Of a stretch of DNA of 64,000 nt, positions 9,206-45,813 are shown piece after piece (position 1 is the stretch's first letter; each line of letters starts with the position of its first letter). The translations under genes and the position numbers were made by a program. The stretch comes from Dehalococcoidia bacterium (lineage in GTDB: Bacteria; Chloroflexota; Dehalococcoidia; Lucifugimonadales; UBA3495): the NCBI GenBank assembly GCA_965226875.1, contig OZ245439.1:3271081-3335080 (forward strand). Reading direction: 5' to 3'. A model generated the notes under the pieces. It was not told where the DNA came from, made no database searches, and saw only the letters and a list, made by a program, of their open reading frames with translations.

Positions 9206-9619
9206 ATGATTTTCGAGAGCGAGCCCATACCTCTCAATATCCCCGAAGGCCTGCCGCTGTACCGGGATGAACGCGGGACAGTCCGGGTGAGTAATAGCCG
9301 CGTTCTTCTGGACATCGTGGTAGGCGCGCGCGCACTGGGCTACAACGCCGAGGAAATTTCAAGCCAGTACACAACGGCCAGCGCCGCCGCCGTGAAAGGA
9401 GTGCTGACTTACTACCAAGCCAACAAGGGCGAAGTGGATGAGTATCTGCGGATACGCCGAGAGCGGGGAGACAAAATCAAGGAATACTTCCAATCTCAGC
9501 CCGAATATACGGAATGGCTTAAACGGTTCAGAGAGCGGGTCCGGGAAAAGGGCTTAATTCGGCGACTCGCTTTCTGGCGGACGAGAACTTCAGAATCGAG
9601 ATTGTCCGACGAGTGTTGA
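9206..9619 (+). CDS. DUF433-type putative antitoxin
   Basis: ATG 9206 with GGAGGA upstream, inside the artefactual long ORF 8216-9619. RGTVRVSNSRVLLDIVVGARALGYNAEEISSQY...VLTYYQANKGEVDEYL matches the DUF433 (COG2442) pattern. Confidence 0.6.
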   Translation: MIFESEPIPLNIPEGLPLYRDERGTVRVSNSRVLLDIVVGARALGYNAEEISSQYTTASAAAVKGVLTYYQANKGEVDEYLRIRRERGDKIKEYFQSQPEYTEWLKRFRERVREKGLIRRLAFWRTRTSESRLSDEC

Positions 9620-9915
9620 GACAAGACCCTGCCACTGACATTGTTCGCGCTCAGGATGTTAATTTGGCCCGAACTCCAGACTCGATAGTGCTGGAGCGAG
9701 CTGCGGAGATGGGCCGGGTGCTGCTGACCCACGACTATGGCGATATGCCTTTCTACATTGATGAAAGACTTCGGGCCGGTCTGCCAATGCCGGGGGCAGT
9801 GCAGATTCCCTGGACATTGCCGACAGGGCAGGCGGTTGAAGACCTGCTGCTCCTAATTGGGGGCAGCCTTGAGCATGAATGGGAGAACCGGGTGCACTAC
9901 CTACCTCTCCCCTGA
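9613..9915 (+). CDS. DUF5615 (Mut7-C/PIN-like) putative toxin; N-terminus problematic
   Basis: ORF-track GVG start 9613 is GTG. The same frame is open from 9523 and reads ...TRFLADENFRIEIVRRVLRQDP..., the family's conserved N-terminus, but there is no ATG, GTG or TTG upstream of FLADEN. Confidence 0.5.
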   Translation: MLRQDPATDIVRAQDVNLARTPDSIVLERAAEMGRVLLTHDYGDMPFYIDERLRAGLPMPGAVQIPWTLPTGQAVEDLLLLIGGSLEHEWENRVHYLPLP

Positions 9916-10130: not shown

Positions 10131-10986
10131 GGGGGTGTCGTCAAAGTGAGAGTGTGATAATAAGCTGATATTGCAATTAGTGCAGCAGGATTGGGCAATG
10201 CCAGCAGTAGCCGTAGCCCCGGCGCACCGGCGCCACGATATTTCAGACCGGGTATGGGAAATCTTGGAACCCCTTCTCCCCGGCGGCAAGGGCAAGACAG
10301 GCCGGCCGGCCCAAGATAACCGCCGTTTCATCAACGCCGTGTTCTGGATTTTGCGCACCGGCGCCCCCTGGCGGGATCTGCCCCCGGACTACGGGGACTG
10401 GAAGAACACCCACCGCCGCTTCTGCCGCTGGCGGGACCGGAACGTCTGGGCCGGGCTGCTGGAGGCGGTGATGGATGACCCTGATTATGAATGGCTGATG
10501 ATTGACGCCAGCTACATCAAGGCCCATCCCCACAGCGCCGGGGCCCGGGGCGGCAACCAAGCCATTGCCCGCACAAAAGGGGGCTCAACAGCAAGCTGCA
10601 CCTGGCGGTGGACTCCCACGGAATGCCGGTAAGGCTGGCGGTAACCGCAGGCACTGTGGCTGACTGCTCCCAAGCGCTGCCCCTGATTGAGGGCATCAAG
10701 GCGGAACACCTGCTGGCGGACAAAGCCTATGACACCAATGAAATCGTGGCCGGGGCCTCGGCCCGGGGGATGAATCCGGTGATACCGCCCAAGAGCAACC
10801 GGAAGGAAAAGCGGGACTACGACCGGGCGCTGTACAAGTTGCGGCATTTGGTGGAGAACGGTTTCCTGGAGTTCAAGCAGTGGCGGGGAGTGGCGACCCG
10901 GTATGCCAAGAACTCCCTTTCTTACCTGGCCATCTGCCAGATTCGGGCCATGGCGATTTGGACTAAATTACTTTGACGACACCCCC
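10131..10986 (+). mobile_element. IS5-family insertion sequence (two-ORF, -1 frameshift type), 856 bp, apparently intact
   Basis: Perfect 17-bp terminal inverted repeat GGGGGTGTCGTCAAAGT (10131-10147) / ACTTTGACGACACCCCC (10970-10986). TA on both flanks within CTAG (10128-10131 and 10986-10989). Confidence 0.85.
10198..10976 (+). CDS. IS5-family DDE transposase, two frames joined by a -1 frameshift at the A4G5 run 10575-10583
   Basis: ORFs 10171-10632 and 10608-10976. Frame 1 ends ...IARTKGG and the -1 frame continues LNSKLHLAVDSHGMPVR.... The DDE context is present: MIDASYIKAH, LLADKAYD and ENGFLEFKQWRGVATRYAK. Confidence 0.8.
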
Positions 10987-11154: not shown

Positions 11155-11949
11155 CTACTTAGCCGATGAACCGATAACGTCCTCTTCCCAAGAATTCGAG
11201 AATATGTCCGTCTCTGAGCACTTGTAGCTGTTGGCGTGGCGGATTTTCGGCGCGATGTGTCGGTTCTCCGGGTGCTGCGTTGATAGTGTCTCAGTAAACC
11301 GTGCATAGAATTGCCGGAGAGTGAATTCGGGGCTGCGGGTCTCCGCTGCCAGGGTGCGGACACAGGCGAGAATATCCACGCCCCATCCGCCGGATGCCCT
11401 ACTATCGGAGCGCAGGAACTCGAATCTGCGCCAGTGTTCCCGCACGGATTCCACTGGCCGCGGAGTGCTTGCGGACACGATGTTGATGCGTCCGTCAGGT
11501 GGTATCTCACCCAGCAGGATATTTGACCCTATCCAGCCGCTACGTCTTGCGGATGAGCTAAGCGGATTTCTTTGTTTAATGACGCTCCGGGTAAAGAAAT
11601 GACCCGGAACGACAAATAAATCGGTTATGCGCCAATCGCTGCTGGAGAACTGAAGGAAAGCGTAATTGGGAACCCTACCCGCTTCGATGGCGTCAATTTT
11701 GGAATAGTAGGCCGAGTTACTGACTGTCCGCCCGAATCTTCTGCCTGTGGCCTTCAGTTGATAGGTGGATTCGCATTCCGGGCAGGTAAAGTCTTTTACT
11801 CGCGTGTTGTCTGGCTCTGCACTGATTGACGAAGAAGAGCACGCTACGCAAAAGAGGTTTTTGGCTGCCCAATCCTCCGTGATGACCCTAGCTTTTTGGC
11901 TAGAGCTTGAGTAATTATCGCCAACAGCGGGGTCCAAGTTCAGGTTCAT
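11155..11949 (-). CDS. DpnI-like methyl-directed (type IIM) restriction endonuclease, C-terminal frameshift (possible pseudogene)
   Basis: YSSSSQKARVITEDWAAKNLFCVACSS...FTCPECES...ARRSGWIGSNILLGEIPPDGRINIV parallels the DpnI sequence as I recall it. The last ~27 aa are out of frame because of a CGCCA tandem duplication (plus-strand 11232-11241). AT-richer than the backbone. Confidence 0.7.
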   Translation of the reverse strand: MNLNLDPAVGDNYSSSSQKARVITEDWAAKNLFCVACSSSSISAEPDNTRVKDFTCPECESTYQLKATGRRFGRTVSNSAYYSKIDAIEAGRVPNYAFLQFSSSDWRITDLFVVPGHFFTRSVIKQRNPLSSSARRSGWIGSNILLGEIPPDGRINIVSASTPRPVESVREHWRRFEFLRSDSRASGGWGVDILACVRTLAAETRSPEFTLRQFYARFTETLSTQHPENRHIAPKIRHANSYKCSETDIFSNSWEEDVIGSSAK

Positions 11950-15181: not shown

Positions 15182-15856
15182 ATGACCGACAAGGCAAAGC
15201 TGACCCGCCAGGCCATGTGCGACCGGCTGGCGATGGAATTCCAGGAAGGCTGGATTGTCAACCTAGGCGTGGGAATGCCCACTCTCTGCTCCAACTACGT
15301 TGACACGTCGCGGGAGATCATCAACCACTCAGAAAACGGCGTCGTCGGATACGGCCCGCTGGCCACCGAGGGACAGGAAGACCGGCACCTTGTCAACGCC
15401 GGCGGACAGCACGTCACGGCGTTGCCGGGCATGGGCATCGTGCATCACGCCGACTCGTTCATGATGATCCGAGGCGGGATGATTGACGTTACCGTAATGG
15501 GTGCCTACGAGGTAGCTGAGAACGGCGACTTCGCCAACTGGCGCATCCCAACCCGCAAGGGCGGCGGCATCGGCGGCGCCATGGACCTGGCGGCCTGCGC
15601 CAAGCGCGTCTTCATCGCCATGGAACACTCCACCCGAGAAGGAGCACCCCGTCTGCTCCACCGCTGCAACCTGCCGATAACCGCCCCCGGCGTGGTCAAA
15701 ATGCTGGTCACCGACTTGGGCCTCTTCGGCATCACCCCTGACGGATTCGAGCTGCTGGAACACGCCCCCGGCTGGAACCCGGAGGAGATTCAGGAGCTGA
15801 CCGGGGCCACGATTAACATCTCTCCCGACCTGAAGGAGTTCCGATTTAGGGATTAG
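15182..15856 (+). CDS. 3-oxoacid CoA-transferase, subunit B
   Basis: Internal ATG 15182 of ORF 14999-15856. Contains WIVNLGVGMPT...SENG...GGAMDL, with the catalytic-Glu region SENG. Confidence 0.9.
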   Translation: MTDKAKLTRQAMCDRLAMEFQEGWIVNLGVGMPTLCSNYVDTSREIINHSENGVVGYGPLATEGQEDRHLVNAGGQHVTALPGMGIVHHADSFMMIRGGMIDVTVMGAYEVAENGDFANWRIPTRKGGGIGGAMDLAACAKRVFIAMEHSTREGAPRLLHRCNLPITAPGVVKMLVTDLGLFGITPDGFELLEHAPGWNPEEIQELTGATINISPDLKEFRFRD

Positions 15857-15945
15857 GCGATTGCGGCGCGGAAGGCGGCTCCAGTATGCGGGTAATGCGG
15901 AAAGTTTGCGGCACTACCCGCAAGCATCCATAGAGGTTGAGCGCA

Positions 15946-17040
15946 ATGTACACCTCATTCGCCATCGAAAATTTCCGTTGCTTCGAGGACTTGACTGTCC
16001 AGCCGCTGGCTCGTGTCAACCTGATAGCCGGCCAAAATAACGTAGGCAAAACGGCGTTGCTTGAGGCGCTGTGGCTGTTCAGCCACCCCACCGAGCCAAG
16101 AAACGCGCTTCAGACCATCCTGCGGGAATTGGCCGATTATGGTCAAGGAGAGTTTTTCGCGGACCTGTTCCCTCAGTACCAAACTGGATTAACCATTAAA
16201 TTACAGGCGGAGAACATACAAAGCCGCAGGTTCAGAACCCTCTGCATCCGGCGTAAGTATCGCGCCCAGCAGCCCCTTTTTGATTGGTCAAAGGATCCTG
16301 AAACCGAATTGGACGACGACGCGATTGCCGATTTCGATTTCAGCAATGAACTTGCCTTTGAATACGTTGACGAAACCGGCAAGGAGGTACTGACTAGCGC
16401 CTGGCTGAATGCGGAGCCAGGGGTAGGCTGGCTACGTCCTATGCTGAGAGACAGCAGAACATCAATGGCACCACCTGAGTATCCGTGCGTATTTGATCAT
16501 CCCAGAACCCGGTACAACGCCCGCGCCCTTGCTACCCGTTTTGGCAGAGCGGAGCGTGAAAGATATTCATCGGCCATCGAGAAAGCTATCCGGTTACTGG
16601 AGCCTAGATTAAAGCGGATGACCACGATTGCCGACAGCCGCGGACGCCCCTCACTTCACGGGGACATTGGCACTGGCCGATTATTCCCCATGGCGATTAT
16701 GGGGGAGGGAACCAAACGCTTGTTGGCTTTATCGCTGGCCTTTCTATCCGCCCGCGACGGAATAATACTCATTGATGAGATCGAAAACGGGCTGCATCAT
16801 AGCGTTTTGGTGGATGTCTGGAAGAACCTGGACTGGTTGTCCCGCGAATTCAACGTGCAGGTTTTCGCCACCACCCATAGCTACGAGTGCATCGTAGCGG
16901 CAAACAACGCTTTCACGGAAATAGAATCCGACGACCTTCACTTTCATCGCCTGAACCGGAAGGGCGAACAGGTAAGAGCGGTTACATATACCAAGGCCAT
17001 GTTGGCTACCAATATCGAATACTTTTGGGAGCTCCGCTGA
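15946..17040 (+). CDS. ABC/SMC-type AAA ATPase (AAA_15/AAA_21-like), AriA/OLD-ATPase-like
   Basis: ENFRCF N-terminus, Walker A GQNNVGKT (nt 16030-16053), signature-like MGEGTKRLLAL, Walker B IILIDEIENGLH and H-loop ATTHS. ATG 15946 is preferred (GAGG 9 nt upstream) over the TTG at 15937. Confidence 0.8.
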   Translation: MYTSFAIENFRCFEDLTVQPLARVNLIAGQNNVGKTALLEALWLFSHPTEPRNALQTILRELADYGQGEFFADLFPQYQTGLTIKLQAENIQSRRFRTLCIRRKYRAQQPLFDWSKDPETELDDDAIADFDFSNELAFEYVDETGKEVLTSAWLNAEPGVGWLRPMLRDSRTSMAPPEYPCVFDHPRTRYNARALATRFGRAERERYSSAIEKAIRLLEPRLKRMTTIADSRGRPSLHGDIGTGRLFPMAIMGEGTKRLLALSLAFLSARDGIILIDEIENGLHHSVLVDVWKNLDWLSREFNVQVFATTHSYECIVAANNAFTEIESDDLHFHRLNRKGEQVRAVTYTKAMLATNIEYFWELR

Positions 17041-17699
17041 TGACGGCGCAGCGGGAATCCCAGCATACCCTCAAAATCACACAGCCCGTCCTGTTGCTGG
17101 TTGAAGGCCCGGACGACGACCATTTTTTCCAGCGAATCATAGAGCGGCGCGAGAACCAAGGGATACAAGTCGTCCCATACGGCGGCAAGGACAACCTTGG
17201 AAATTTTCTGGTCAACGTCCTGGTTCCCAGGCTAAGGTCTTCTGCTGTGGTCAAGGCCATTGGCGTAACGAGGGATGCCGATTGTTATTACAACCGCGCC
17301 TTTCAAAGCATTGACGACTCGCTGCGTCTGGCAGGCTTGCCGTCGCCAACATCTCCATTAACATACGCAAAGGGAATGTTAGACGACGACCGTATTCGTG
17401 TAGCAGCCTATGTTATGCCCGATAACGCATCCCCGGGCGACCTCGAAACATTGTGTCTCAATGCGGTTAGCGAAGCACCCGCAATCCCTTGTGTTAACCG
17501 TTACTTTGATTGCTTGCAGTCAATCGGCCACGTTCCCAGACAGGAAAGCAAGGCGCGTCTGCGGGCGTTCCTGTCGGCGAACCCGGATAATCCCAATCTG
17601 CTTATAGGTCAAGCTGTTGCGGCAGACGTTATACCGTGGAACAGTCCGGTTTTTGCCGGTATCAACCAATTCCTTGATATGTTGACCTCAGTAAACTAA
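17040..17699 (+). CDS. TOPRIM-like protein (DUF4435/DUF3226-type), AriB-like
   Basis: ATG overlaps the upstream stop (TGATG). LLLVEGPDDDHFF, then GVTRDADCYY about 75 aa later, gives the E...DxD layout of TOPRIM; 219 aa. The family assignment was made by eye only. Confidence 0.6.
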   Translation: MTAQRESQHTLKITQPVLLLVEGPDDDHFFQRIIERRENQGIQVVPYGGKDNLGNFLVNVLVPRLRSSAVVKAIGVTRDADCYYNRAFQSIDDSLRLAGLPSPTSPLTYAKGMLDDDRIRVAAYVMPDNASPGDLETLCLNAVSEAPAIPCVNRYFDCLQSIGHVPRQESKARLRAFLSANPDNPNLLIGQAVAADVIPWNSPVFAGINQFLDMLTSVN

Positions 17700-17718
17700 T
17701 GTCGTCCCCGACCTCCAA

Positions 17719-19181: not shown

Positions 19182-19320
19182 CCCTCGCATTGGCCACTCA
19201 ATTACCAGGACACCGGACGGACGGGGGATAAATCTCCGCGTCCTTGGGTGCCCGGTGAAAAGCACCCGGCAGCAGTTATTTCCTGACCACTATGGTCGGG
19301 TAATTGCTTTTGACCATACG

Positions 19321-19360
19321 GCACTAAATTGGCCGGAAAGGCACTAGATTGGCTGGAAAT
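19321..19360 (+). repeat. imperfect 20-bp tandem repeat
   Basis: GCACTAAATTGGCCGGAAAG followed by GCACTAGATTGGCTGGAAAT. A related AATTTGGCCGGAAT occurs at 19846-19859. Confidence 0.7.
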
Positions 19361-20078
19361 CTGAATAAACCTTGACCGACGGCCGGAAGTCCCTCCCCTC
19401 CGGTCGTTATATTTCCGTTATAGTTCTCTGCTACCTTATTGTCCTGGTGGCCTTGAGGCGTACCGGGGGAATGGCAAAATCCCTTGAGAATCGTCCCCCT
19501 CTCCCTCCGCTCAAGGCCTTGCCGGCCCACCCGCGATTCCTGGCCGCGCTCGGAACGTCAGGCGATCACAGTTGCTTTGCAATCGTTTTGGAGGCATACC
19601 GCAGGAATCTTGCCCGGTTTTTGAGAACAGGCGCCTTCATTCAGAAGAGTGGCAGAAGAGTGGGTTTCCCGGCAGGAAATCGTTAAATCGTTGCGGAACA
19701 AAGGACGCCTCCCAATCTACCGGTCGCCTTGCCAAGGGGGTCGCAGACACCTTTGGGGCGCCGGAATCTGGCTTGACCTAGACAGGGAGTCTGTGATTGA
19801 ATACCGCCCGCACAACTACCCGGCATCTCTTCGGGGTGGCGTAAGAATTTGGCCGGAATTCAAACCCGGTCTGAAATGCGGGCGAATTTACAGACATAAA
19901 CTGTTGAATTACCGGACAGGTGTTAGGTATGATGTTGCGGACATTCTACGGGGTTGTCTACGCCTCCCAGTTCGAACATCCCGATAGGAACGGGAACAAG
20001 CGCTGAGTCCGAATGGACCAAGGCTGGAAGGGAGGGTACCGGCTTTATGGAGACTACATCTTTTTTGGAGCCACTTCA

Positions 20079-22064
20079 ATGAGCTTGATTCAACGTAATG
20101 CTGTCCCCTTGTTCATCCTGATTGCGGTAATTGCCGTGGGAGTCGGGGTGCTTATGGTCAACAGCCCCTTCGCCGCCGGCCAGGAGCCGCCCCAGTGCGA
20201 CACCTCCGCCGTTGGCATATCCATCATCACCACCGACGACTCCGGCAGCTCGGTGACCGTGGTCTCCCACGGCGACAACATCGGCTACACGGTCAACCTG
20301 TCCATCCCGGAACTGCCCGAAGGGGAGACCGCTTGTAACTACGGCAGCGGCATCCTGACACTTACTTTGCCCAGCGGCGAGCAGGTTGCCGTGGCCGGCA
20401 CTGATGATACCGAAATCATTCCCACCGTCCAGGTCGGCTCGGTCTACACGGCCCCCCGGATCGCGTACACTGTCAACCAGAACGACGGCGTCCAGAACGC
20501 GTCCGGCAACGTGGAACTGACCGCCCGGGTCGACTATTCCGGCGGCACCACCTTCAGCGCAGTGGAAGGCGAGGAGGCCGCAGCGTCCCAGTCCAAACGG
20601 GCTCGCATGACTCCGCCCTCGATCGTGATAGAGGTGACGCCCGCCGGGAATCCCGGCGCCGACACCCAGACGGTTTACCAAGGCCAAGAGGCGCTCTTCG
20701 AAATCACCGTAACCAATACCGGCGGTTTCGAGTTGTCCGACATCACTGTTACCGACGCGCTGGCTCCGGACTGCGACCGGGCTGCCGGCACTCTCGACAC
20801 TCTGCCCGTCGGCGCGTCAGCGGCGCCCTATGTCTGCGGCGTGACGCCGGATACGTTCTTGACCAACGAAGCGATAGTGACCGCCAAGGCGACGGCCAAG
20901 GACTCTAGCGGCGCGCCCGTGGAAATAGAGGCCACGAATTCCGACACCTCCGAAGTCGTTTTCGGCGAAGTGGCCGTCGGCATTACCATCGATCCCCCAG
21001 TGCAGGTTATCCGCACCGGGACCGAGGCCACCTTCGACATCACCGTCACCACCCCGTCGGTCACGGCCTTGGACGACGTCACCGTCACCGTTGTAAGAGT
21101 AGACGGGGACGACGGCAGCTTTGACCTCAGCGAGTGCAGCAGCGCATTTGGCACGGTGGCCGCGGACGCGGAGGTGTCTCCTTACTCCTGTAGTGCCATC
21201 CTGCCCTTGGGGAGGAGCATGGTTACGGCCACTGTCGTCGGCACATTGCCGGGAACCACAGAACCTCTGCCCGCAGCGACCGCTTCCGCTGAGGTCCAGG
21301 TCATCGCCCCAGGGTTGGCCATCGTAGCCACCTCGGGAGCGGATACGATCCGGGGGTTGCCGACGGTTCGCAAAGGTCAAGCGGCGGCCCTTGCCATTTC
21401 CGTGTACAACAACGGCGACTCAACGCTGTCCGACGTGTCGGTGGTTAACAGTGTTGGGTACCCCGAGGCGCAAAACTGCGACCTCAGCCTGATTAGCTTG
21501 GGGCAGCTCAATGCGGGCGAATCCCTGACCGTTAACTGCTCCACCGGCAATCTCGACGCAATAACGAACTTCGCCTTCAACGTCACCGCCAACGCCAGAG
21601 ACGGCAGTGAAGAGAGGGCCGAATCCGATCCGGTCACCATCAACATCCTGGACTCCAGCACCGCTGTCGGCCTCAGCGAGCATAACACCGTGGTGCTGCG
21701 GCTGGTGGTGCAAACCCTGACCGTAACCGAAACCAACGATGGCGACTCCCTGCTGAGAGATGTCCAGGTGGAGCTCCAGTCCAACGGCGTCGTGCCGCTG
21801 TCCCGCGAACCTCTGACCCGCGACTCCATGGAATACGTCGGCGGCGACTTAAACGACGACGCCATACTTGACCCAGGGGAGACTTGGGAGTGGCGGGTGG
21901 TAACCGTGTCGGTGGCCGGTGATGTCGTGCTGCTGTCCGGAGACGCCCTGAATCTGGAACTGACTGCCATCGGATACGGCGTCGATGAGTTGGACGGCGT
22001 GGTAACTCACCCCGGCGACGTGGAAGAGCTTAGCACCATAGAAGTCCCGATAGTTACCCAGTAG
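20079..22064 (+). CDS. secreted/surface protein with DUF11-type (conserved repeat domain) beta-sandwich repeats
   Basis: N-terminal signal/anchor LFILIAVIAVGVGVLMV. Repeated ...FEITVTNTGGFELSDITVTD..., ...ISVYNNGDSTLSDVSVVN... and ...LTVTETNDGDSLLRDVQVEL.... Start at ATG 20079 (GGAG 10 nt upstream). Confidence 0.7.
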   Translation: MSLIQRNAVPLFILIAVIAVGVGVLMVNSPFAAGQEPPQCDTSAVGISIITTDDSGSSVTVVSHGDNIGYTVNLSIPELPEGETACNYGSGILTLTLPSGEQVAVAGTDDTEIIPTVQVGSVYTAPRIAYTVNQNDGVQNASGNVELTARVDYSGGTTFSAVEGEEAAASQSKRARMTPPSIVIEVTPAGNPGADTQTVYQGQEALFEITVTNTGGFELSDITVTDALAPDCDRAAGTLDTLPVGASAAPYVCGVTPDTFLTNEAIVTAKATAKDSSGAPVEIEATNSDTSEVVFGEVAVGITIDPPVQVIRTGTEATFDITVTTPSVTALDDVTVTVVRVDGDDGSFDLSECSSAFGTVAADAEVSPYSCSAILPLGRSMVTATVVGTLPGTTEPLPAATASAEVQVIAPGLAIVATSGADTIRGLPTVRKGQAAALAISVYNNGDSTLSDVSVVNSVGYPEAQNCDLSLISLGQLNAGESLTVNCSTGNLDAITNFAFNVTANARDGSEERAESDPVTINILDSSTAVGLSEHNTVVLRLVVQTLTVTETNDGDSLLRDVQVELQSNGVVPLSREPLTRDSMEYVGGDLNDDAILDPGETWEWRVVTVSVAGDVVLLSGDALNLELTAIGYGVDELDGVVTHPGDVEELSTIEVPIVTQ

Positions 22065-35726: not shown

Positions 35727-35804
35727 GCCCCGGTCGTCTAGCCAGGTCAGGATGCCACCCTTTCAAGGTGGAGATCAGGGGATCGAAGCCCCTCCGGGGT
35801 ACCA
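35727..35804 (+). tRNA. tRNA-Glu (anticodon UUC), CCA encoded
   Basis: Hand-folded cloverleaf. Acceptor GCCCCGG/CCGGGGT, D-arm GTCT-AGCCAGGTC-AGGA, and anticodon arm CCACC-CTTTCAA-GGTGG (TTC at positions 34-36). Variable loop AGATC, T-arm AGGGG-ATCGAAG-CCCCT, then A-CCA. Non-canonical G1:U72 and A54. Confidence 0.8.
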
Positions 35805-35839
35805 CTCCTTTCCAAGATTTTTCATAGGGTGAAGTAACT

Positions 35840-36157
35840 ATGAACGCCCAATCCTTCAACATCAGGTTGTCCTATGATGTCTCGTTGCAAGACCGCGGCG
35901 ACCATTGGGCGGCAATAGTCGAGCAGATTGGAACGACTGTCTACGCACAGGATGAGCAGGCCGCGTTGAAGCGGGCAGATGAGATGGTTCAGTTTATAGT
36001 CTCGTCCTTCAACAAGTACGCGACACTGGATGATTTCCGCGAGTATATGGACAGCCACGGACTCCAGCATACCATTACCAAGGCAGTAGGTGCGGAAAAC
36101 TATGACTTGGGGTGGTTCAGCCCTTATCGAAGGGAGGGTGCTTTTGCCTTTGCCTAG
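35840..36157 (+). CDS. hypothetical protein, weak HicB-N-terminal-like pattern
   Basis: 105-aa ORF immediately after the tRNA. YDVSLQDRGDHWAAIVEQIGTTVYAQDEQAALKRADEMVQFIV is reminiscent of the UPF0150/HicB antitoxin fold. Confidence 0.35.
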   Translation: MNAQSFNIRLSYDVSLQDRGDHWAAIVEQIGTTVYAQDEQAALKRADEMVQFIVSSFNKYATLDDFREYMDSHGLQHTITKAVGAENYDLGWFSPYRREGAFAFA

Positions 36158-36418
36158 CCAACATCGCCCTTCGCTCTCCAGCGTACATATCGCGCTGACT
36201 CAAACTGGGCTGCCAAATGGTAGCCCAGAATGGCGAAATGCGTTGGTACCAACTTCAGGAACACACCGAAGTCAACCTATTCCTGGATCTCGGAGAGTTG
36301 ACTACGTTTGAAGATCTCTCCAGAGCATTAGCCAAGAACGGAGAGAATCCTGATGCGTTTTTCGCCATGTACGAATCGCTTTAGATCTCCCGCGAGTTGC
36401 GCTATCGGTGGAGCGTAG

Positions 36419-36628
36419 ATCAGCTATCGCAGAAATGGACGCCCGGTCATGGCACTGATGTCTTGGGAGCTTTTCGAGGCTCTGGCAGACACTATCGAAA
36501 TACAGTCCGACCCGGAGCTCATGGCGCAAATTAACCAGCGCGAAATCGATGTCTCTCAAGGGAAAACGATTCTACCCAGTGAGATTATAGCCGTGCTCAA
36601 CATTAAGCCGGATGCCGCTCCCGCTTAG
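36419..36628 (+). pseudogene. C-terminal two-thirds of a Phd/YefM-type antitoxin (remnant)
   Basis: My translation gives ...NGRPVMALMSWELFEALADTIEIQSDPELMAQINQREIDVSQGKTILPSEIIAVL.... The frame is closed by TAG at 36416. The only ATG is at 36449 (59 aa, below the ORF-track cut-off), and no N-terminal DNA-binding part or toxin partner is present. Confidence 0.35.
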
Positions 36629-36812
36629 TCAGAAAGCGGCCACTAAAACCGCATAACATCTGCCCGCAAGTGTCAAGGACTGGGGGGAGAAGTAGTTTTG
36701 GTCAGGAAACTCTCGACTTGATGCGCGACACGACACTGGTCAATGTCCAATGTTCCCTCGTAGCTGATTTGTATCTGGAATTATTTGACATCTCAATGGT
36801 CAATGTCCTGAC

Positions 36813-37295
36813 ATGAGTCGCATCGAAATGACCGCATCCTGGCAGCAGTTCGCGGCCCAGGCCCCTGAGCTGGCGGCGCTGGGCGAGGCGCAGTTCGCGC
36901 GGACGGGGCTGGCGCTGGTGGGGACGCTGCGGCGGGACGGCTGGCCGCGCATCTCGCCAGTGGAGCCGTTAATCACCGGGGGGCAGTTGTACCTGGGCAT
37001 GATGTGGCGCTCGGTGAAGGCGCTGGACCTGTTGCGCGACTCCCGCTGCGTCGTCCACAGCACGGTGTCCAACCGGGACGGCACGGAGGGCGAATTCAAG
37101 GTCTATGGGCGGGCCGTAGAGGTCAACGACCCCGAGGAGCGGCGGCGTTTCGGGGACGCAGTGTTTGCCGCCATCGGCTTTCGGACGGAAGAGCCGGAGT
37201 TCCACTGCTTCGCCATCTCCATCGAGAGCGTGGTTTTCTCCCACCTCCGGGACAGCGAGTTTCACCGGCAGGTATGGAAGGCCGGACAAACGTAG
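36813..37295 (+). CDS. pyridoxamine 5'-phosphate oxidase-family (split-barrel flavin/F420-binding) protein
   Basis: 160 aa with LVGTLRRDGWPRISPVEPLITGGQLYLGM...VHSTV...EFKVYGRAVEV, the PPOX-like barrel pattern. Confidence 0.65.
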   Translation: MSRIEMTASWQQFAAQAPELAALGEAQFARTGLALVGTLRRDGWPRISPVEPLITGGQLYLGMMWRSVKALDLLRDSRCVVHSTVSNRDGTEGEFKVYGRAVEVNDPEERRRFGDAVFAAIGFRTEEPEFHCFAISIESVVFSHLRDSEFHRQVWKAGQT

Positions 37296-45118: not shown

Positions 45119-45481
45119 GTGCCCTGGGACGTTGAGTATACCGACGAGTTTCTCAAGTGGTGGAATGAAATATCCGGCAGGGAACAGGACTCAGTTTCAA
45201 TATCTGTTGACCGCCTGATAGAAGACGGCATCAGTCTTGGCTTCCCTCACTCGTCAGCGATACACTCTTCTCGGCACAGCCATATGCGAGAATTGAGAGT
45301 GCGAGGCGGAAGGAGTTCCATTCGTGTCTTCTATGCGTTCGACCCGCGGCGTACCTCAATACTGCTAGTTGGCGGCTTCAAGACTGATGGGGAACGATTC
45401 TACCAGCAGTACGTACCTATCGCGGACCGTCTTTATGACCAGTATCTTGAAGACTTGCGCCAGGAGGGGCTGATTCCATGA
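45119..45481 (+). CDS. RelE/ParE-superfamily toxin, HigB/Gp49-like
   Basis: WDVEYTDEFLKWWNEIS...MRELRVRGGRSSIRVFYAFDPRRTSILLVGGFKTDGERFYQQYVPIADRLYDQY is the typical Gp49/HigB-2 addiction-module pattern. AT-richer than the flanks. Confidence 0.75.
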   Translation: MPWDVEYTDEFLKWWNEISGREQDSVSISVDRLIEDGISLGFPHSSAIHSSRHSHMRELRVRGGRSSIRVFYAFDPRRTSILLVGGFKTDGERFYQQYVPIADRLYDQYLEDLRQEGLIP

Positions 45482-45813
45482 GCGGACACCGCCCGTTTTC
45501 TGAATTGATCCAGGATTTTCCTAAGGAACGCCTCGAAGGGATAAAATTGGGCTCTGAGCGCCTGGAAGTCAAAATTCAGATATCCAGAGCCATCGGCGAG
45601 GAACTGCTGCGAGAGAACAATGAGCTCTCTGATCTGCTGTGCGAGGCGGAGTTGGACTTTTCAGACAAGGAACTGGCCCAAGCCATTGAGGAGCAAATCG
45701 CGGCTGTTGAAGGGACTGAGCGGGCATTCACCTCGGAACAGCAACGGCATATCAAAGAGCTAACTAACGAGGTTCACAGTTGGATTGCGCTGAACGAATC
45801 AGTCAAGGTTTAA
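45478..45813 (+). CDS. putative cognate antitoxin, atypical (no recognisable HTH)
   Basis: ATGA overlap with the toxin stop. The N-terminus HRPFSELIQDFPKERLEG resembles the start of HigA-type partners. The remainder is acidic, helical and coiled-coil-like. Confidence 0.5.
   Translation: MSGHRPFSELIQDFPKERLEGIKLGSERLEVKIQISRAIGEELLRENNELSDLLCEAELDFSDKELAQAIEEQIAAVEGTERAFTSEQQRHIKELTNEVHSWIALNESVKV

What the first reader, a model, noticed from the sequence alone, without database searches (positions are those of the whole stretch)
15860..17715. AT-rich two-gene cassette: ABC-type ATPase translationally coupled to a small TOPRIM-like protein (compact PARIS/OLD-like candidate defence module)
Seen in sequence: ORFs 15946-17040 and 17040-17699 overlap by one base (TGATG), so they are almost certainly co-translated. 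ORF1 carries Walker A GQNNVGKT, a signature-like MGEGTKRLLAL, Walker B IILIDEIENGLH and H-loop ATTHS. About 210 non-conserved residues separate Walker A from the signature, which is the SMC/OLD/AAA_15-AAA_21 layout. ORF2 (219 aa) begins LLLVEGPDDDHFF and has GVTRDADCYY about 75 aa later, an E...DxD TOPRIM-like arrangement as in DUF4435/DUF3226 proteins. Established knowledge: a separate ABC ATPase plus DUF4435 TOPRIM nuclease is the PARIS architecture (AriA/AriB), and the fused form is the OLD/GajA nuclease family. Inference: both proteins here (about 364 and 219 aa) are clearly shorter than the AriA/AriB sizes I remember, so this may be a minimal or distinct subtype. The cassette is compositionally foreign. 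My hand count gives 27/60 G+C for 16141-16200 versus 47/60 for 15541-15600 in the adjacent CoA-transferase gene. It sits alone between metabolic genes.
Basis: partly seen in the sequence, partly recalled or inferred. Interest (0 to 1): 0.8.

Follow-up and report, generated by a model that had tools for sequence, protein, structure and literature searches.

The report
ABC ATPase plus TOPRIM-like defence candidate
This is a real two-gene operon pairing an ATPase with a small nuclease-like protein; it belongs to an already catalogued but untested family of candidate anti-phage systems (PADLOC PDC-M38, related to AbiL and PARIS), so it is a sound but fairly ordinary defence candidate.

Summary
ORF1 (15946-17040, 364 aa) and ORF2 (17040-17699, 219 aa) share a TGATG stop/start overlap, all quoted motifs are present, and the hand G+C counts are exact.

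ORF1 is an SMC/Rad50-type ABC ATPase. Its best matches are PADLOC PDC-M38A (2e-54) and AbiLi (2e-50). ORF2 is a full-length DUF3226 protein (3e-28) and matches PDC-M38B. It carries OLD-type TOPRIM motifs (E22-G-x-x-D26, D79-x-D81). It is not DUF4435/AriB, so the pair is a PDC-M38 member, not PARIS proper.

- **Conserved pairing:** the ATPase sits immediately upstream of DUF3226 in every relative locus examined (26-99% identity).
- **Accessory, not housekeeping:** several probable Chloroflexota genomes carry it at this same site, but none of 80 loci with closely related CoA-transferase genes carries it, and about half of them show the flanking genes adjacent.
- **Persistent low GC:** GC3 is about 0.6 against about 0.85-0.9 in the flanks, in every Chloroflexota locus, so it does not indicate recent import.
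- **Hypervariable insert:** the ATPase insert (aa 81-190) falls into at least 8 types, decoupled from the rest of the cassette.

The most likely function is a PARIS-like sensor plus nuclease module, but this is untested. It is a new member of a known kind and of modest interest.

The parts
15857..15945 (+). Leader between the CoA-transferase B stop codon and the ORF1 start. It carries a Shine-Dalgarno-like GAGG at 15933-15936. No sigma-70-like promoter was found.
   Evidence: Sequence. The promoter scan found no sites. The hairpin at 15887-15922 is not unusual (z = -0.17). In relatives the spacer is only 14-23 bp (L004, L008, L010), which suggests read-through transcription from the upstream operon.
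15946..17040 (+). ORF1, 364 aa: an SMC/Rad50-type ABC ATPase (AAA_15/AAA_21; PDC-M38A / AbiLi-like).
   Evidence: Pfam AAA_15 4e-24 and AAA_21 8e-21. PADLOC PDC-M38A 2.1e-54 and AbiLi 1.9e-50, both full length, and AriA 1.3e-27. The AF2 model has pLDDT 84, and Foldseek finds PtuA, SMC heads, GajA, Rad50 and Ts OLD at E 1e-13 to 1e-10.
16030..16053 (+). Walker A motif, GQNNVGKT (aa 29-36).
   Evidence: G29, N31, N32, G34 and K35 are invariant in 29 homologues.
16186..16515 (+). Hypervariable insert domain of the ATPase (aa 81-190, beta-rich; Insert 1 of the ABC fold). Proposed sensor or specificity module.
   Evidence: Column conservation is 0.35-0.47 here against 0.85-0.94 in the core. Across 41 cassettes, insert identity is mostly 10-30% and falls into at least 8 types, while the core is 50-90% identical. 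Spearman correlation of insert with DUF3226 identity is 0.15, against 0.48 for the core. This segment has the lowest GC3 in the cassette (0.555).
16699..16731 (+). ABC signature-like motif, MGEGTKRLLAL (aa 252-262).
   Evidence: G253, G255, R258 and L260 are invariant.
16762..16797 (+). Walker B and D-loop, IILIDEIENGLH (aa 273-284).
   Evidence: D277, E278, E280, G282 and H284 are invariant.
16867..16881 (+). H-loop, ATTHS (aa 308-312).
   Evidence: A308 to S312 are invariant.
17027..17042 (+). Translational-coupling junction: GGGAG Shine-Dalgarno inside the end of ORF1, then the TGATG stop/start overlap.
   Evidence: A one-base stop/start overlap (TGATG, TAATG or TAGTG) is present in 11 of 13 relative loci, usually with a GGAG-like element upstream.
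17040..17699 (+). ORF2, 219 aa: DUF3226 family (PDC-M38B), an OLD-type TOPRIM-like putative nuclease with a C-terminal helical domain.
   Evidence: - Pfam DUF3226 3.3e-28 covering 3-206 of 208 profile positions; OLD-like_TOPRIM 1.2e-4 (22.9 bits against a cut-off of 23.2).
- PADLOC PDC-M38B 1.4e-11.
- A family profile hits PDB 2P62 (PH0156) at 3.9e-6.
- The AF2 model has pLDDT 91.8.
- The best TM match is 6NK8, the B. pseudomallei OLD C-terminal region (0.49/0.53).
- hhalign places the family on P2 Old residues 389-456.
17103..17117 (+). TOPRIM Glu motif, E22-G-P-D-D26 (the EGxxE/D pattern of OLD nucleases).
   Evidence: V21, E22 and G23 are invariant, and position 26 is always D or E in the 33 homologues. 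The motif aligns to the LLVEGKTE of P2 Old.
17274..17282 (+). TOPRIM DxD motif, D79-A-D81.
   Evidence: D79, A80 and D81 are invariant. The motif aligns to ADCD of P2 Old and to the VRDVDE of PH0156.
17433..17570 (+). Helical-domain segment holding further invariant residues (G133, E136, L138, L140, K171). These are candidate extra catalytic or substrate-binding residues.
   Evidence: The assignment is by analogy with the helical domain of OLD nucleases and is inferred, not tested.

Best explanation
**What it is.** The cassette is a two-gene operon with overlapping stop and start codons, which suggests translational coupling. It belongs to the PADLOC candidate defence family PDC-M38. That family sits in the wider group of ABC-ATPase plus TOPRIM systems that includes AbiL, PARIS, OLD/Gabija and HEC-01.

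**ORF1.** It is an SMC/Rad50-type ABC ATPase with intact Walker A, signature, Walker B and H-loop motifs. Its insert domain (aa 81-190) is hypervariable.

**ORF2.** It is a 219-aa DUF3226 protein with OLD-type TOPRIM metal-binding motifs (E22-G-x-x-D26 and D79-x-D81) followed by a helical domain.

**Most likely mechanism (inferred by analogy with PARIS, not shown).**
1. An ATPase oligomer holds the nuclease in an inactive complex.
2. The variable insert recognises a phage-derived trigger.
3. ATP-dependent rearrangement releases or activates the nuclease.
4. The nuclease cuts nucleic acid (tRNA as AriB does, or DNA as OLD and GajA do) and stops growth of the infected cell.

**In the genome.** It is an accessory insertion between the CoA-transferase B gene and a convergent SDR gene, and is probably transcribed by read-through from the upstream operon. 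It is maintained at that site in several probable Chloroflexota lineages. Its alleles, and especially the insert domain, appear to be exchanged or diversified.
For: **Shown here.**
- **Gene structure, motifs and overlap**.
- **Family assignment.** PDC-M38A 2e-54, AbiLi 2e-50 and AriA 1e-27 for ORF1. DUF3226 3e-28 and PDC-M38B 1.4e-11 for ORF2. All 33 homologues match PDC-M38B, and 25 of 33 match OLD-like_TOPRIM.
- **Catalytic-type residues are invariant:** E22, D79 and D81, plus E136 and K171. The ATPase motifs are also invariant.
- **Link to a solved structure and to AriB.** The family profile hits PH0156 (2P62), and the literature reports that the same structure is the top HHpred hit of an AriB.
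- **The pair is the conserved unit.** In 13 further loci (26-99% identity, at least 7 different genomic contexts) an AAA_15/21 ATPase of 340-378 aa lies immediately upstream, with a one-base stop/start overlap in 11 of the 13.
- **Accessory nature.** None of 80 loci with CoA-transferase B at 76-89% identity carries the pair. In about half of them the SDR gene lies immediately downstream of the CoA-transferase genes, in some only 10-140 bp away.
- **Fast evolution.** Flanks are 88-93% identical where the cassette is 55-70%.
- **Hypervariable, modular insert** with at least 8 types, decoupled from DUF3226 identity.
- **Recent allele sharing between two close strains.** There are 5 differences in 1755 nt of the cassette against 25 in 1392 nt of the adjacent CoA-transferase genes (Fisher p = 2e-5).

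**From the literature.**
- PDC systems were nominated because homologues are embedded in BREX, DISARM and type I RM loci (bioRxiv 10.1101/2024.01.29.577857).
- PARIS works as an AriA-held AriB toxin that cleaves tRNA-Lys, and AbiL is grouped with PARIS (PMC13064643).
Against: - No member of PDC-M38 or DUF3226 has a demonstrated function in the searched literature. 'DUF3226', 'PF11536' and 'PDC-M38' returned no main-text hits.
- In this lineage the cassette sits among housekeeping genes. No RM, BREX or CRISPR genes adjoin it in any of the 14 loci. Only scattered TA genes, IS elements and, in this window, a DpnI-like gene lie a few kb away.
- No homologue was found on plasmids, phages or IMG/VR contigs.
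- Fold support for TOPRIM is weak by E-value: no PDB hit at E <= 1e-3, and the best TM is about 0.5.
- hhalign to P2 Old gives only 23% probability.
- The window protein scores 22.9 bits on OLD-like_TOPRIM, just under the 23.2 cut-off.
- Physical interaction, toxicity, nuclease substrate and trigger are all inferred.
Confidence: 0.6

Rival explanations
1. The pair is a selfish addiction (toxin-antitoxin-like) module. ORF2 would be a toxic nuclease and ORF1 its ATPase antidote. It would persist at the locus by post-segregational or loss-penalty effects and give no real anti-phage benefit.
For: - It persists at one chromosomal site across lineages whose flanking proteins are only about 75% identical.
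- It is isolated from defence islands.
- PARIS itself behaves as a type II TA (PMC13064643).
- Other TA-like pairs are scattered in the same window.
Against: - A plain addiction module has no obvious need for a hypervariable, type-switching insert in the antidote.
- Many close relatives have clean empty sites, so loss or absence is tolerated.
- Homologous cassettes were nominated as defence candidates because they are embedded in BREX, DISARM or RM loci.
Confidence: 0.15
2. The pair has a housekeeping or stress-related DNA repair or replication role, analogous to RecF (ABC ATPase) with RecR (TOPRIM) or to SbcCD/Rad50-Mre11. In that case conserved synteny would reflect a core function.
For: - ORF1 weakly matches RecF, Rad50 and RecN models at its N terminus (recF 5.5e-11).
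- Structural neighbours include Rad50 and SMC heads.
- The position next to metabolic genes is conserved in several genomes.
- No defence island adjoins it.
Against: - The recF score is 42 bits against a cut-off of 172 and covers only residues 4-73.
- ORF2 has no RecR or Toprim_4 match.
- The pair is absent from all 80 loci with closely related CoA-transferase genes.
- The cassette proteins are far less conserved than the flanking proteins, about three- to five-fold more divergent in amino acids.
- GC3 is about 0.6 against about 0.85-0.9 in core genes.
- The insert is hypervariable.
- All of this is atypical of core repair genes.
Confidence: 0.07
3. ORF2 is not a nuclease. On this reading the DUF3226 TOPRIM-like fold binds a nucleotide, metal or nucleic acid and acts as an adaptor or regulator, and the module's output is something other than cleavage.
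For: - Fold and profile links to catalytic TOPRIMs are marginal.
- The only solved family member (2P62, PH0156) is an uncharacterised structural-genomics entry.
- Some TOPRIM proteins are non-catalytic (RecR, from general knowledge).
Against: - The full OLD-type acidic set is invariant or conservatively kept across 24-99% identity: E22, D/E26, D79 and D81, plus E136. That is hard to explain without metal-dependent chemistry.
- The relatives AriB, OLD and GajA are nucleases (literature).
Confidence: 0.1

Closest known systems
PADLOC phage defence candidate PDC-M38 (PDC-M38A + PDC-M38B; Payne et al., bioRxiv 10.1101/2024.01.29.577857)
   Same: - Both proteins have PDC-M38 models as their best PADLOC hits (A: 2.1e-54 over 1-360 of 364 aa; B: 1.4e-11 over 13-204).
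- Protein sizes match the models: 364 and 219 aa, against 362-383 (four of the five PDC-M38A models) and 219-240.
- Gene order (A then B), strand and adjacency are the same.
- All 33 ORF2 homologues match PDC-M38B.
   Different: - PDC-M38 was nominated from cassettes embedded in BREX, DISARM or type I RM loci. This cassette and its relatives lie among housekeeping genes.
- PDC-M38 itself is untested, so membership gives no proven function.
AbiL (AbiLi + AbiLii) of Lactococcus
   Same: - It is a two-gene system of an ABC ATPase and a predicted TOPRIM/OLD-like protein (PMC13064643).
- ORF1 matches the AbiLi model over its full length (1.9e-50).
   Different: - ORF2 does not match AbiLii. Only 1 of 33 family members does, at 1.5e-6.
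- AbiL is plasmid-borne in Firmicutes, and its mechanism is unknown.
PARIS (AriA + AriB)
   Same: - The ABC ATPase and the TOPRIM nuclease are separate genes.
- ORF1 hits the AriA models (1.3e-27).
- The N-terminal beta1 'VEG' region of ORF2 hits AriB/DUF4435 weakly.
- DUF4435 and DUF3226 are remote homologues: an AriB's top HHpred hit is 2P62.
- It is the best-understood mechanistic model (ATPase scaffold, released nuclease, tRNA cleavage).
   Different: - ORF2 is DUF3226, not DUF4435 (Pfam E 0.18; AriB model 0.003, over 36 aa only).
- ORF2 is about 90 aa shorter than the AriB chains in the PDB (308-316 aa).
- AriA did not appear among the top 50 structural matches of ORF1.
- Trigger and substrate are unknown.
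OLD-family nucleases and Gabija GajA
   Same: - The same ABC ATPase plus TOPRIM chemistry.
- The best TM match of the ORF2 model is the B. pseudomallei OLD C-terminal region (6NK8).
- The EGxxE/D and DxD motifs align to P2 Old.
- GajA and Ts OLD are among the ORF1 structural hits.
   Different: - In OLD and GajA the ATPase and TOPRIM are fused in one polypeptide. Here they are separate genes.
- There is no GajB/UvrD-type helicase partner next to the pair in the window or the other syntenic loci.
Pfam DUF3226 / PDB 2P62 (Pyrococcus horikoshii PH0156)
   Same: ORF2 is a full-length DUF3226 member at 99 bits. The family profile finds 2P62 at 3.9e-6, with the VEG and DxD motifs aligned.
   Different: PH0156 is an uncharacterised archaeal structural-genomics protein with no assigned function or partner. 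It did not appear among the top 50 Foldseek hits of the ORF2 model.

Membership tests
PADLOC PDC-M38 | A protein matching a PDC-M38A model (ABC ATPase) | tested here: met
   PDLC04611 at 2.1e-54, covering residues 1-360 against profile positions 1-379 of 383.
PADLOC PDC-M38 | An adjacent protein on the same strand matching a PDC-M38B model | tested here: met
   PDLC04624 at 1.4e-11 (residues 13-204 against profile 10-206 of 220) and PDLC04623 at 1.7e-9. The genes overlap by 1 nt. PADLOC itself, with its own thresholds, was not run.
PADLOC PDC-M38 | Embedded in or next to a BREX, DISARM or type I RM system (the discovery criterion) | tested here: not met
   No such genes are next to the pair in the window or in 13 relative loci. 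This was the discovery criterion, and the paper also searched for non-embedded homologues, so it is not taken here as a membership requirement.
PADLOC PDC-M38 | Demonstrated anti-phage activity | not testable with these tools
   PDC systems are described as untested candidates.
Pfam DUF3226 (PF11536) | Score above the gathering threshold over most of the model | tested here: met
   99.3 bits against a cut-off of 27, covering 3-206 of 208 profile positions. All 33 homologues match.
TOPRIM / OLD-like TOPRIM domain | A conserved Glu after beta1 and DxD after beta3, plus the second acidic residue of EGxxE/D | tested here: met
   E22, D79 and D81 are invariant, and position 26 is always D or E. The motifs align to the same motifs in P2 Old and PH0156.
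TOPRIM / OLD-like TOPRIM domain | A significant profile match to a TOPRIM model | tested here: inconclusive
   PF20469 scores 22.9 bits against a cut-off of 23.2 for the window protein. 25 of 33 relatives match at E <= 0.01, the best at 1.1e-5. hhalign to P2 Old gives E 8.6e-4 but only 23% probability.
TOPRIM / OLD-like TOPRIM domain | TOPRIM fold in the structure | tested here: inconclusive
   The AF2 model (pLDDT 91.8) has alternating beta-alpha units followed by a helical domain. Its best TM match is 6NK8, the OLD C-terminal region, at 0.49/0.53, but at E 0.026 and with no hit at E <= 1e-3.
PARIS (AriA/AriB) | An AriA-type ABC ATPase | tested here: inconclusive
   The AriA models hit at 1.3e-27 and 2.5e-23, but PDC-M38A and AbiLi score far better. 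AriA is not among the top 50 structural hits.
PARIS (AriA/AriB) | An AriB effector of the DUF4435 family | tested here: not met
   Pfam DUF4435 gives E 0.18. The PADLOC AriB model gives 0.0032, covering residues 18-53 only. PDB AriB chains give E about 0.7.
AbiL | An AbiLi ATPase | tested here: met
   PDLC02336 at 1.9e-50, covering residues 1-358 against profile positions 1-334 of 340.
AbiL | An AbiLii partner | tested here: not met
   ORF2 has no AbiLii hit at E <= 1. Only 1 of 33 relatives matches.
OLD / Gabija | ATPase and TOPRIM fused in one protein (plus a GajB helicase for Gabija) | tested here: not met
   Here they are two separate ORFs. No helicase gene is adjacent.
RecF/RecR | A RecF equivalog score and a RecR (Zn-finger plus Toprim_4) partner | tested here: not met
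   recF scores 42 bits against a cut-off of 172, at the N terminus only. ORF2 has no RecR or Toprim_4 hit.

The most novel reading that the evidence does not exclude
In a Chloroflexota clade this PDC-M38 cassette may be a chromosomally anchored, polymorphic immune-receptor locus. It would sit at one fixed site behind the CoA-transferase operon and be expressed by read-through. Its ATPase insert would be a swappable specificity module with at least 8 types. Alleles would move between lineages by homologous recombination through the conserved flanks, which would also explain the persistently low GC3 and the near-identical cassette in two strains whose flanks differ. Mechanistically it would be a compact PARIS-like, ATPase-caged DUF3226 nuclease, and would give the first function for DUF3226.
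Probability: 0.35. Interest if true: 0.55.

Novelty: new member of a known kind. Interest (0 to 1): 0.35.

Why it matters
DUF3226 is a large family: 6641 cluster representatives at 50% identity match its profile. It has a solved structure (2P62), but I found no described function for it. PDC-M38 is one of 145 untested defence candidates.

This locus adds comparative evidence that the ATPase plus DUF3226 pair is a real conflict-type module. It is accessory, evolves fast, has an invariant OLD-type acidic site, and has a hypervariable ATPase insert that behaves like a specificity domain.

That makes for a compact system to test, about 1.75 kb in two genes, with clear point mutants (K35, E278; E22, D79, D81) and a natural panel of insert types for asking how ABC-ATPase defence sensors choose their triggers.

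It does not change the current picture of ABC-ATPase/TOPRIM defence. It extends that picture to a poorly studied phylum and to a 'solitary' chromosomal setting outside defence islands.

Tried and rejected
- **Genome-contig scan with ORF2.** It returned only two Flavobacteriia loci. These proved to be PurT genes sharing the peptide ENQGIQVV, so they are false positives.
- **Sequence search of ORF1 and ORF2 against the PDB.** Nothing useful. Only the family profile found 2P62.
- **Foldseek of the ORF2 model.** Against BFVD there was no significant hit; weak hits included TOPRIM primases, a topoisomerase and an RloB-like protein. Against the PDB there was no hit at E <= 1e-3.
- **tblastn of ORF2 against plasmids and phages, and a profile scan of IMG/VR.** No relatives. 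There is therefore no evidence of carriage on known mobile elements.
- **PHROGs.** Nothing for ORF2.
- **Insertion scars.** There are no terminal direct or inverted repeats beyond chance-level short matches. There are no cassette remnants in empty sites.
- **Upstream hairpin 15887-15922.** z = -0.17, and it is absent from L004, L008 and L010, so it was rejected as a regulatory element.
- **Promoter scan.** No sigma-70-like site. The scan does not cover other promoter types, so this is weak evidence.
- **Literature.** 'DUF3226', 'PF11536' and 'PDC-M38' returned no main-text hits. PDC-M38 was found only in a supplementary table.
- **Taxonomy from cluster members.** No organism names came back. 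The Chloroflexota assignment rests on source names of homologues.
- **'Recent foreign acquisition' as the cause of low GC.** Rejected, because the same GC3 deficit appears in every Chloroflexota locus, including syntenic ones.
- **'Housekeeping syntenic pair'.** Rejected because of the empty sites and fast evolution.
- **Caveat on the 41-cassette analysis.** This is an inference, reliable for long contigs and less so for short ones.


Full report
**1. Observation**

The two ORFs are exactly as described. ORF1 runs from ATG 15946 to TGA 17038-17040 (364 aa). ORF2 runs from ATG 17040 to TAA 17697-17699 (219 aa). They share a TGATG one-base overlap, and Shine-Dalgarno-like GAGG and GGGAG lie 8-9 nt before each ATG.

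The ORF listing offers TTG 15937 and GTG 16887 as earlier starts. Homologue alignments begin at the two ATGs, where M1 is invariant or nearly invariant in both families.

All quoted motifs are present:
- ORF1: Walker A at aa 29-36, signature-like motif at 252-262, Walker B at 273-284, H-loop at 308-312.
- ORF2: LLLVEGPDDDHFF at 18-30 and GVTRDADCYY at 75-84.

The DxD is 57 residues after the Glu, not about 75.

The hand G+C counts (27/60 and 47/60) are exact. The cassette is 0.53 GC, against 0.63-0.69 in the flanking genes and 0.624 for the whole window.

**2. What the proteins are**

*ORF1.* It matches Pfam AAA_15 (4e-24) and AAA_21 (8e-21). In PADLOC-DB it matches PDC-M38A (2.1e-54, full length), AbiLi (1.9e-50, full length) and AriA (1.3e-27), with weaker hits to GajA, PtuA, HEC-01A/02A and others. 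NCBIfam gives only sub-threshold partial hits to MAD3, RecF, PtuA and Rad50. Its AF2 model (pLDDT 84) finds PtuA, SMC heads, GajA, Rad50, retron-associated ATPases and Thermus OLD at E 1e-13 to 1e-10. It is therefore an SMC/Rad50-clade ABC ATPase of the kind common in defence systems. All ATP-binding and hydrolysis motifs are invariant in 29 homologues.

*ORF2.* It is a full-length DUF3226 protein (PF11536, 3.3e-28, 99 bits). It has a just-sub-threshold OLD-like_TOPRIM hit (22.9 bits against 23.2) and a marginal DUF4435 hit (0.18). In PADLOC it matches PDC-M38B (1.4e-11), and matches AriB only over residues 18-53 (0.003).

Family-level evidence is stronger:
- All 33 aligned homologues match DUF3226 and PDC-M38B. 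25 of 33 match OLD-like_TOPRIM, 10 match AriB, 2 match mad4, 1 matches AbiLii and 1 matches HEC-01B.
- The family profile finds PDB 2P62 (P. horikoshii PH0156, uncharacterised) at 3.9e-6, with the VEG and DxD motifs aligned.
- The literature reports 2P62 as the top HHpred hit of a lactococcal AriB (PMC11381338). DUF3226 and DUF4435 are therefore remote relatives.
- Invariant residues are V21, E22, G23, F29, D79, A80, D81, P103, P127, G133, E136, L138, L140, K171, L178, G190 and L212. Position 26 is always D or E. This gives the EGxxE/D ... DxD pattern of OLD-type TOPRIMs.
- hhalign places the family on residues 389-456 of P2 Old, matching LLVEGKTE and ADCD (E 8.6e-4, but probability only 23% against a single sequence).

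The AF2 model is confident (pLDDT 91.8). Foldseek against the PDB gives no hit at E <= 1e-3. The best TM match is the C-terminal (TOPRIM plus helical) region of B. pseudomallei OLD, 6NK8 (TM 0.49/0.53, probability 0.97, E 0.026).

I therefore call ORF2 'TOPRIM-like with an OLD-type acidic site'. It is well supported at motif and profile level and only moderately at fold level.

**3. The pair is the conserved unit**

I examined 13 further loci holding ORF2 relatives at 26-99% identity: L003-L010, L091-L096. In every one, an AAA_15/AAA_21 ATPase of 340-378 aa lies immediately upstream on the same strand.

In 11 of the 13, stop and start overlap by one base (TGATG, TAATG or TAGTG), usually with a GGAG-like element upstream. 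One locus has a GTGA four-base overlap and one has a 4-nt gap.

The DUF3226 profile finds 6641 cluster representatives (50% identity) at E <= 1e-3. Of these, 1235 score at E <= 1e-30, and the best 150 are nearly all 200-250 aa. The family is large.

**4. Genomic behaviour**

*Lineage.* Source names on homologues point to Chloroflexota ('Chloroflexi bacterium', 'Anaerolineae bacterium', 'Ktedonobacteraceae'), with one distant member in Pseudenhygromyxa. The window itself could not be named.

*(a) Synteny.* In L003 (99%), L004 (70%) and L005/L006 (66%) the pair sits at the same place as in the window: CoA-transferase A, CoA-transferase B, ATPase, DUF3226, then a convergent SDR gene. L010 (53%) has the same arrangement. 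L008 (55%) has the pair after the CoA-transferase genes but without the SDR gene. A second clade (41-42% identity; L009, L091) sits between hisB and a glycosyltransferase gene. More distant members have other housekeeping neighbours.

*(b) It is nevertheless accessory.* A metagenome scan with CoA-transferase B returned 80 loci at 76-89% identity. None encodes either cassette protein (tblastn at 1e-4). In about half of them the SDR gene lies immediately downstream of CoA-transferase B. The gap is 10-140 bp in some, for example L020 (12 bp) and L011 (89% identity, 140 bp). These empty sites hold no cassette remnants. On a neighbour-joining tree of CoA-transferase A+B, the cassette-bearing loci form two groups, each next to cassette-less loci. 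This implies either at least two gains or several losses (a weak tree on about 460 aa).

*(c) Rate.* Where the flanking proteins are 88-93% identical, the ATPase is 55-62% and DUF3226 66-70% identical. Where the flanks are about 75%, the values are 46-49% and 53-55%. The ranking agrees with the flanks, but the cassette proteins have diverged about three- to five-fold more in the closer comparisons.

*(d) Composition.* Cassette GC3 is 0.55-0.65 against 0.76-0.92 in neighbouring core genes. This holds in every Chloroflexota locus, syntenic or not. Only the Myxococcota member matches its host (0.84-0.90). The low GC is therefore a standing property of the cassette pool, not a sign of recent arrival in this genome.

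*(e) Modularity.* The ATPase region between Walker A and the signature, especially aa 81-190, is hypervariable, with column conservation of 0.35-0.47 against 0.85-0.94 for the core. Core identity is 50-90% and DUF3226 identity 40-80%. Insert identity is below 30% in 673 of 820 comparisons, and the inserts fall into at least 8 types. Insert identity barely tracks DUF3226 identity (Spearman 0.15, against 0.48 for the core). In 57 cassette pairs DUF3226 is at least 65% identical while the insert is below 30%.

*(f) Recent exchange.* Between the window and the near-identical strain L003, the CoA-transferase genes differ at 25 of 1392 nt. The cassette differs at only 5 of 1755 nt, with none between 15873 and 17005 (Fisher p = 1.8e-5). 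Synonymous differences show the same contrast, so selection does not explain it. This suggests the cassette allele was shared between the two strains more recently than its flanks. The caveat is that this rests on only two metagenome-derived sequences.

*(g) Mobile elements nearby.* L003 has an IS inserted at the ORF2 stop codon. L005/L006 have an IS in or between the CoA-transferase genes. The window has an IS, a DpnI-family gene and a TA-like pair 4-6.7 kb upstream. No RM, BREX or CRISPR locus adjoins the pair in any locus. No homologue was found on plasmids, phages or IMG/VR contigs.

**5. How it most likely works**

*Shown:*
- An intact ABC ATPase with a hypervariable insert.
- An invariant OLD-type acidic site in the partner.
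- Obligate pairing with a conserved stop/start overlap, which suggests translational coupling.
- Accessory distribution, fast evolution and modular diversification of the insert.

*Inferred by analogy with PARIS.* In PARIS, AriA holds the AriB toxin. A phage trigger releases it, and AriB cleaves tRNA-Lys (PMC13064643). Payne et al. propose that the inserts of ABC-ATPase defence proteins set trigger specificity. By analogy:
1. An ORF1 oligomer cages ORF2.
2. The insert senses a phage product.
3. ATP binding or hydrolysis drives release or activation.
4. ORF2 cleaves tRNA or DNA and arrests the infected cell.

The short or absent spacer after the upstream gene in most loci (13-34 bp in L004, L008, L009, L010, L091 and L093; 89 bp here), together with the lack of a recognisable promoter, suggests read-through expression. 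This too is an inference.

I put 0.6 on 'conflict or defence module of the ABC-ATPase/TOPRIM kind'. The specifics are less certain.

*Rivals:*
- A pure addiction module (0.15).
- A non-nuclease DUF3226 (0.10).
- A RecFR- or SbcCD-like housekeeping role (0.07). This is disfavoured by the empty sites, the rate, the GC3 and the hypervariable insert.

**6. Comparison with known systems**

It meets the HMM and adjacency criteria for PADLOC PDC-M38. That is one of 145 untested 'phage defence candidates', derived from genes embedded in BREX, DISARM and type I RM loci. PDC-M38 corresponds to cassettes CAS_00138 and CAS_00155 in the supplement.

- **Not PARIS:** the effector is not DUF4435.
- **Not AbiL:** there is no AbiLii match, although the ATPase is AbiLi-like.
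- **Not OLD/Gabija:** the ATPase and TOPRIM are not fused, and there is no helicase.

On sizes, ORF2 is about 90 aa shorter than the AriB chains in the PDB (308-316 aa). ORF1 is about the length of one PADLOC AriA model (373) and of four of the five PDC-M38A models (362-383). The pair is thus typical of its own family, not a 'minimal' PARIS.

**7. Verdict**

The feature is real and correctly read in outline by the first stage. It is a new, probably Chloroflexota, member of an already catalogued but experimentally untested candidate family.

The session adds three points:
- The hypervariable, modular ATPase insert.
- A fixed but presence/absence-polymorphic chromosomal site.
- A persistent GC3 deficit, with a hint of recent allele exchange.

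Interest is modest at 0.35. A defence specialist would not be surprised. The locus is, however, a compact and well-defined test case for giving DUF3226/PDC-M38 a function.

Noticed in passing
window 11155-11949 (-): A DpnI-family gene (PF06044 3e-55, plus DpnI_C), i.e. a methyl-directed restriction-endonuclease-like protein. It sits in its own low-GC patch (GC 0.536, GC3 0.61). No methylase is evident next to it. The near-identical strain L003 has it, but L004, L005 and L006 do not.
   Followed up: partly
window 10171-10976 (+): An IS4/IS5-type transposase split over two overlapping frames (DUF4096, then DDE_Tnp_1). This looks like a programmed frameshift or a disrupted copy.
   Followed up: partly
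window 9260-9915 (+): A small overlapping pair with weak DUF433 (3e-4) and DUF5615 (1e-4) matches, so TA-like. L004 has a DUF433/DUF5615 pair on the opposite strand in the same region.
   Followed up: partly
window 45119-45813 (+): A second low-GC islet (0.53). It holds a Gp49/HigB-like toxin gene (PF05973, 5e-13) that overlaps by 4 nt with a 111-aa partner gene, so it is probably a type II TA pair.
   Followed up: partly
window 35727-37000: tRNA-Glu(ttc) at 35727-35804 is followed by a low-GC stretch (0.548 over 36001-37000) with only small ORFs. One of them (35840-36157) has a weak phage tail-chaperone hit (2.5e-4). This may be a remnant of an integrated element.
   Followed up: no
window 19200-20000: A low-GC (0.55) stretch without a convincing ORF, upstream of the 683-aa CARDB/CLIPPER-like protein (20013-22064). 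It includes a 20-nt x2 tandem repeat at 19320-19359.
   Followed up: no
L003 10660-12316 (window equivalent: right after 17699): In the 99%-identical strain an IS (DDE_Tnp_1_4/DDE_Tnp_1) is inserted at the ORF2 stop codon, changing TAA to TAG. The window lacks it.
   Followed up: yes
window 15873-17005 vs L003: There are no nucleotide differences over 1133 bp of the cassette, whereas the adjacent CoA-transferase genes differ by about 1.8%. This suggests recent sharing of the cassette allele between the two strains.
   Followed up: yes
L005/L006 5850-7898: An IS (DDE_5) is inserted between the CoA-transferase A and B genes in L006. In L005 the same region is called as one fused product. This shows that IS elements target the same neighbourhood in a relative.
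   Followed up: no
ORF2 aa 139, 151, 158 (window 17454-17513): Three nearly invariant cysteines (C139, C151, C158) lie in the helical domain of the Chloroflexota DUF3226 subfamily. The most distant aligned member (P0097) lacks two of them, C151 and C158. They may form a metal or structural site.
   Followed up: no
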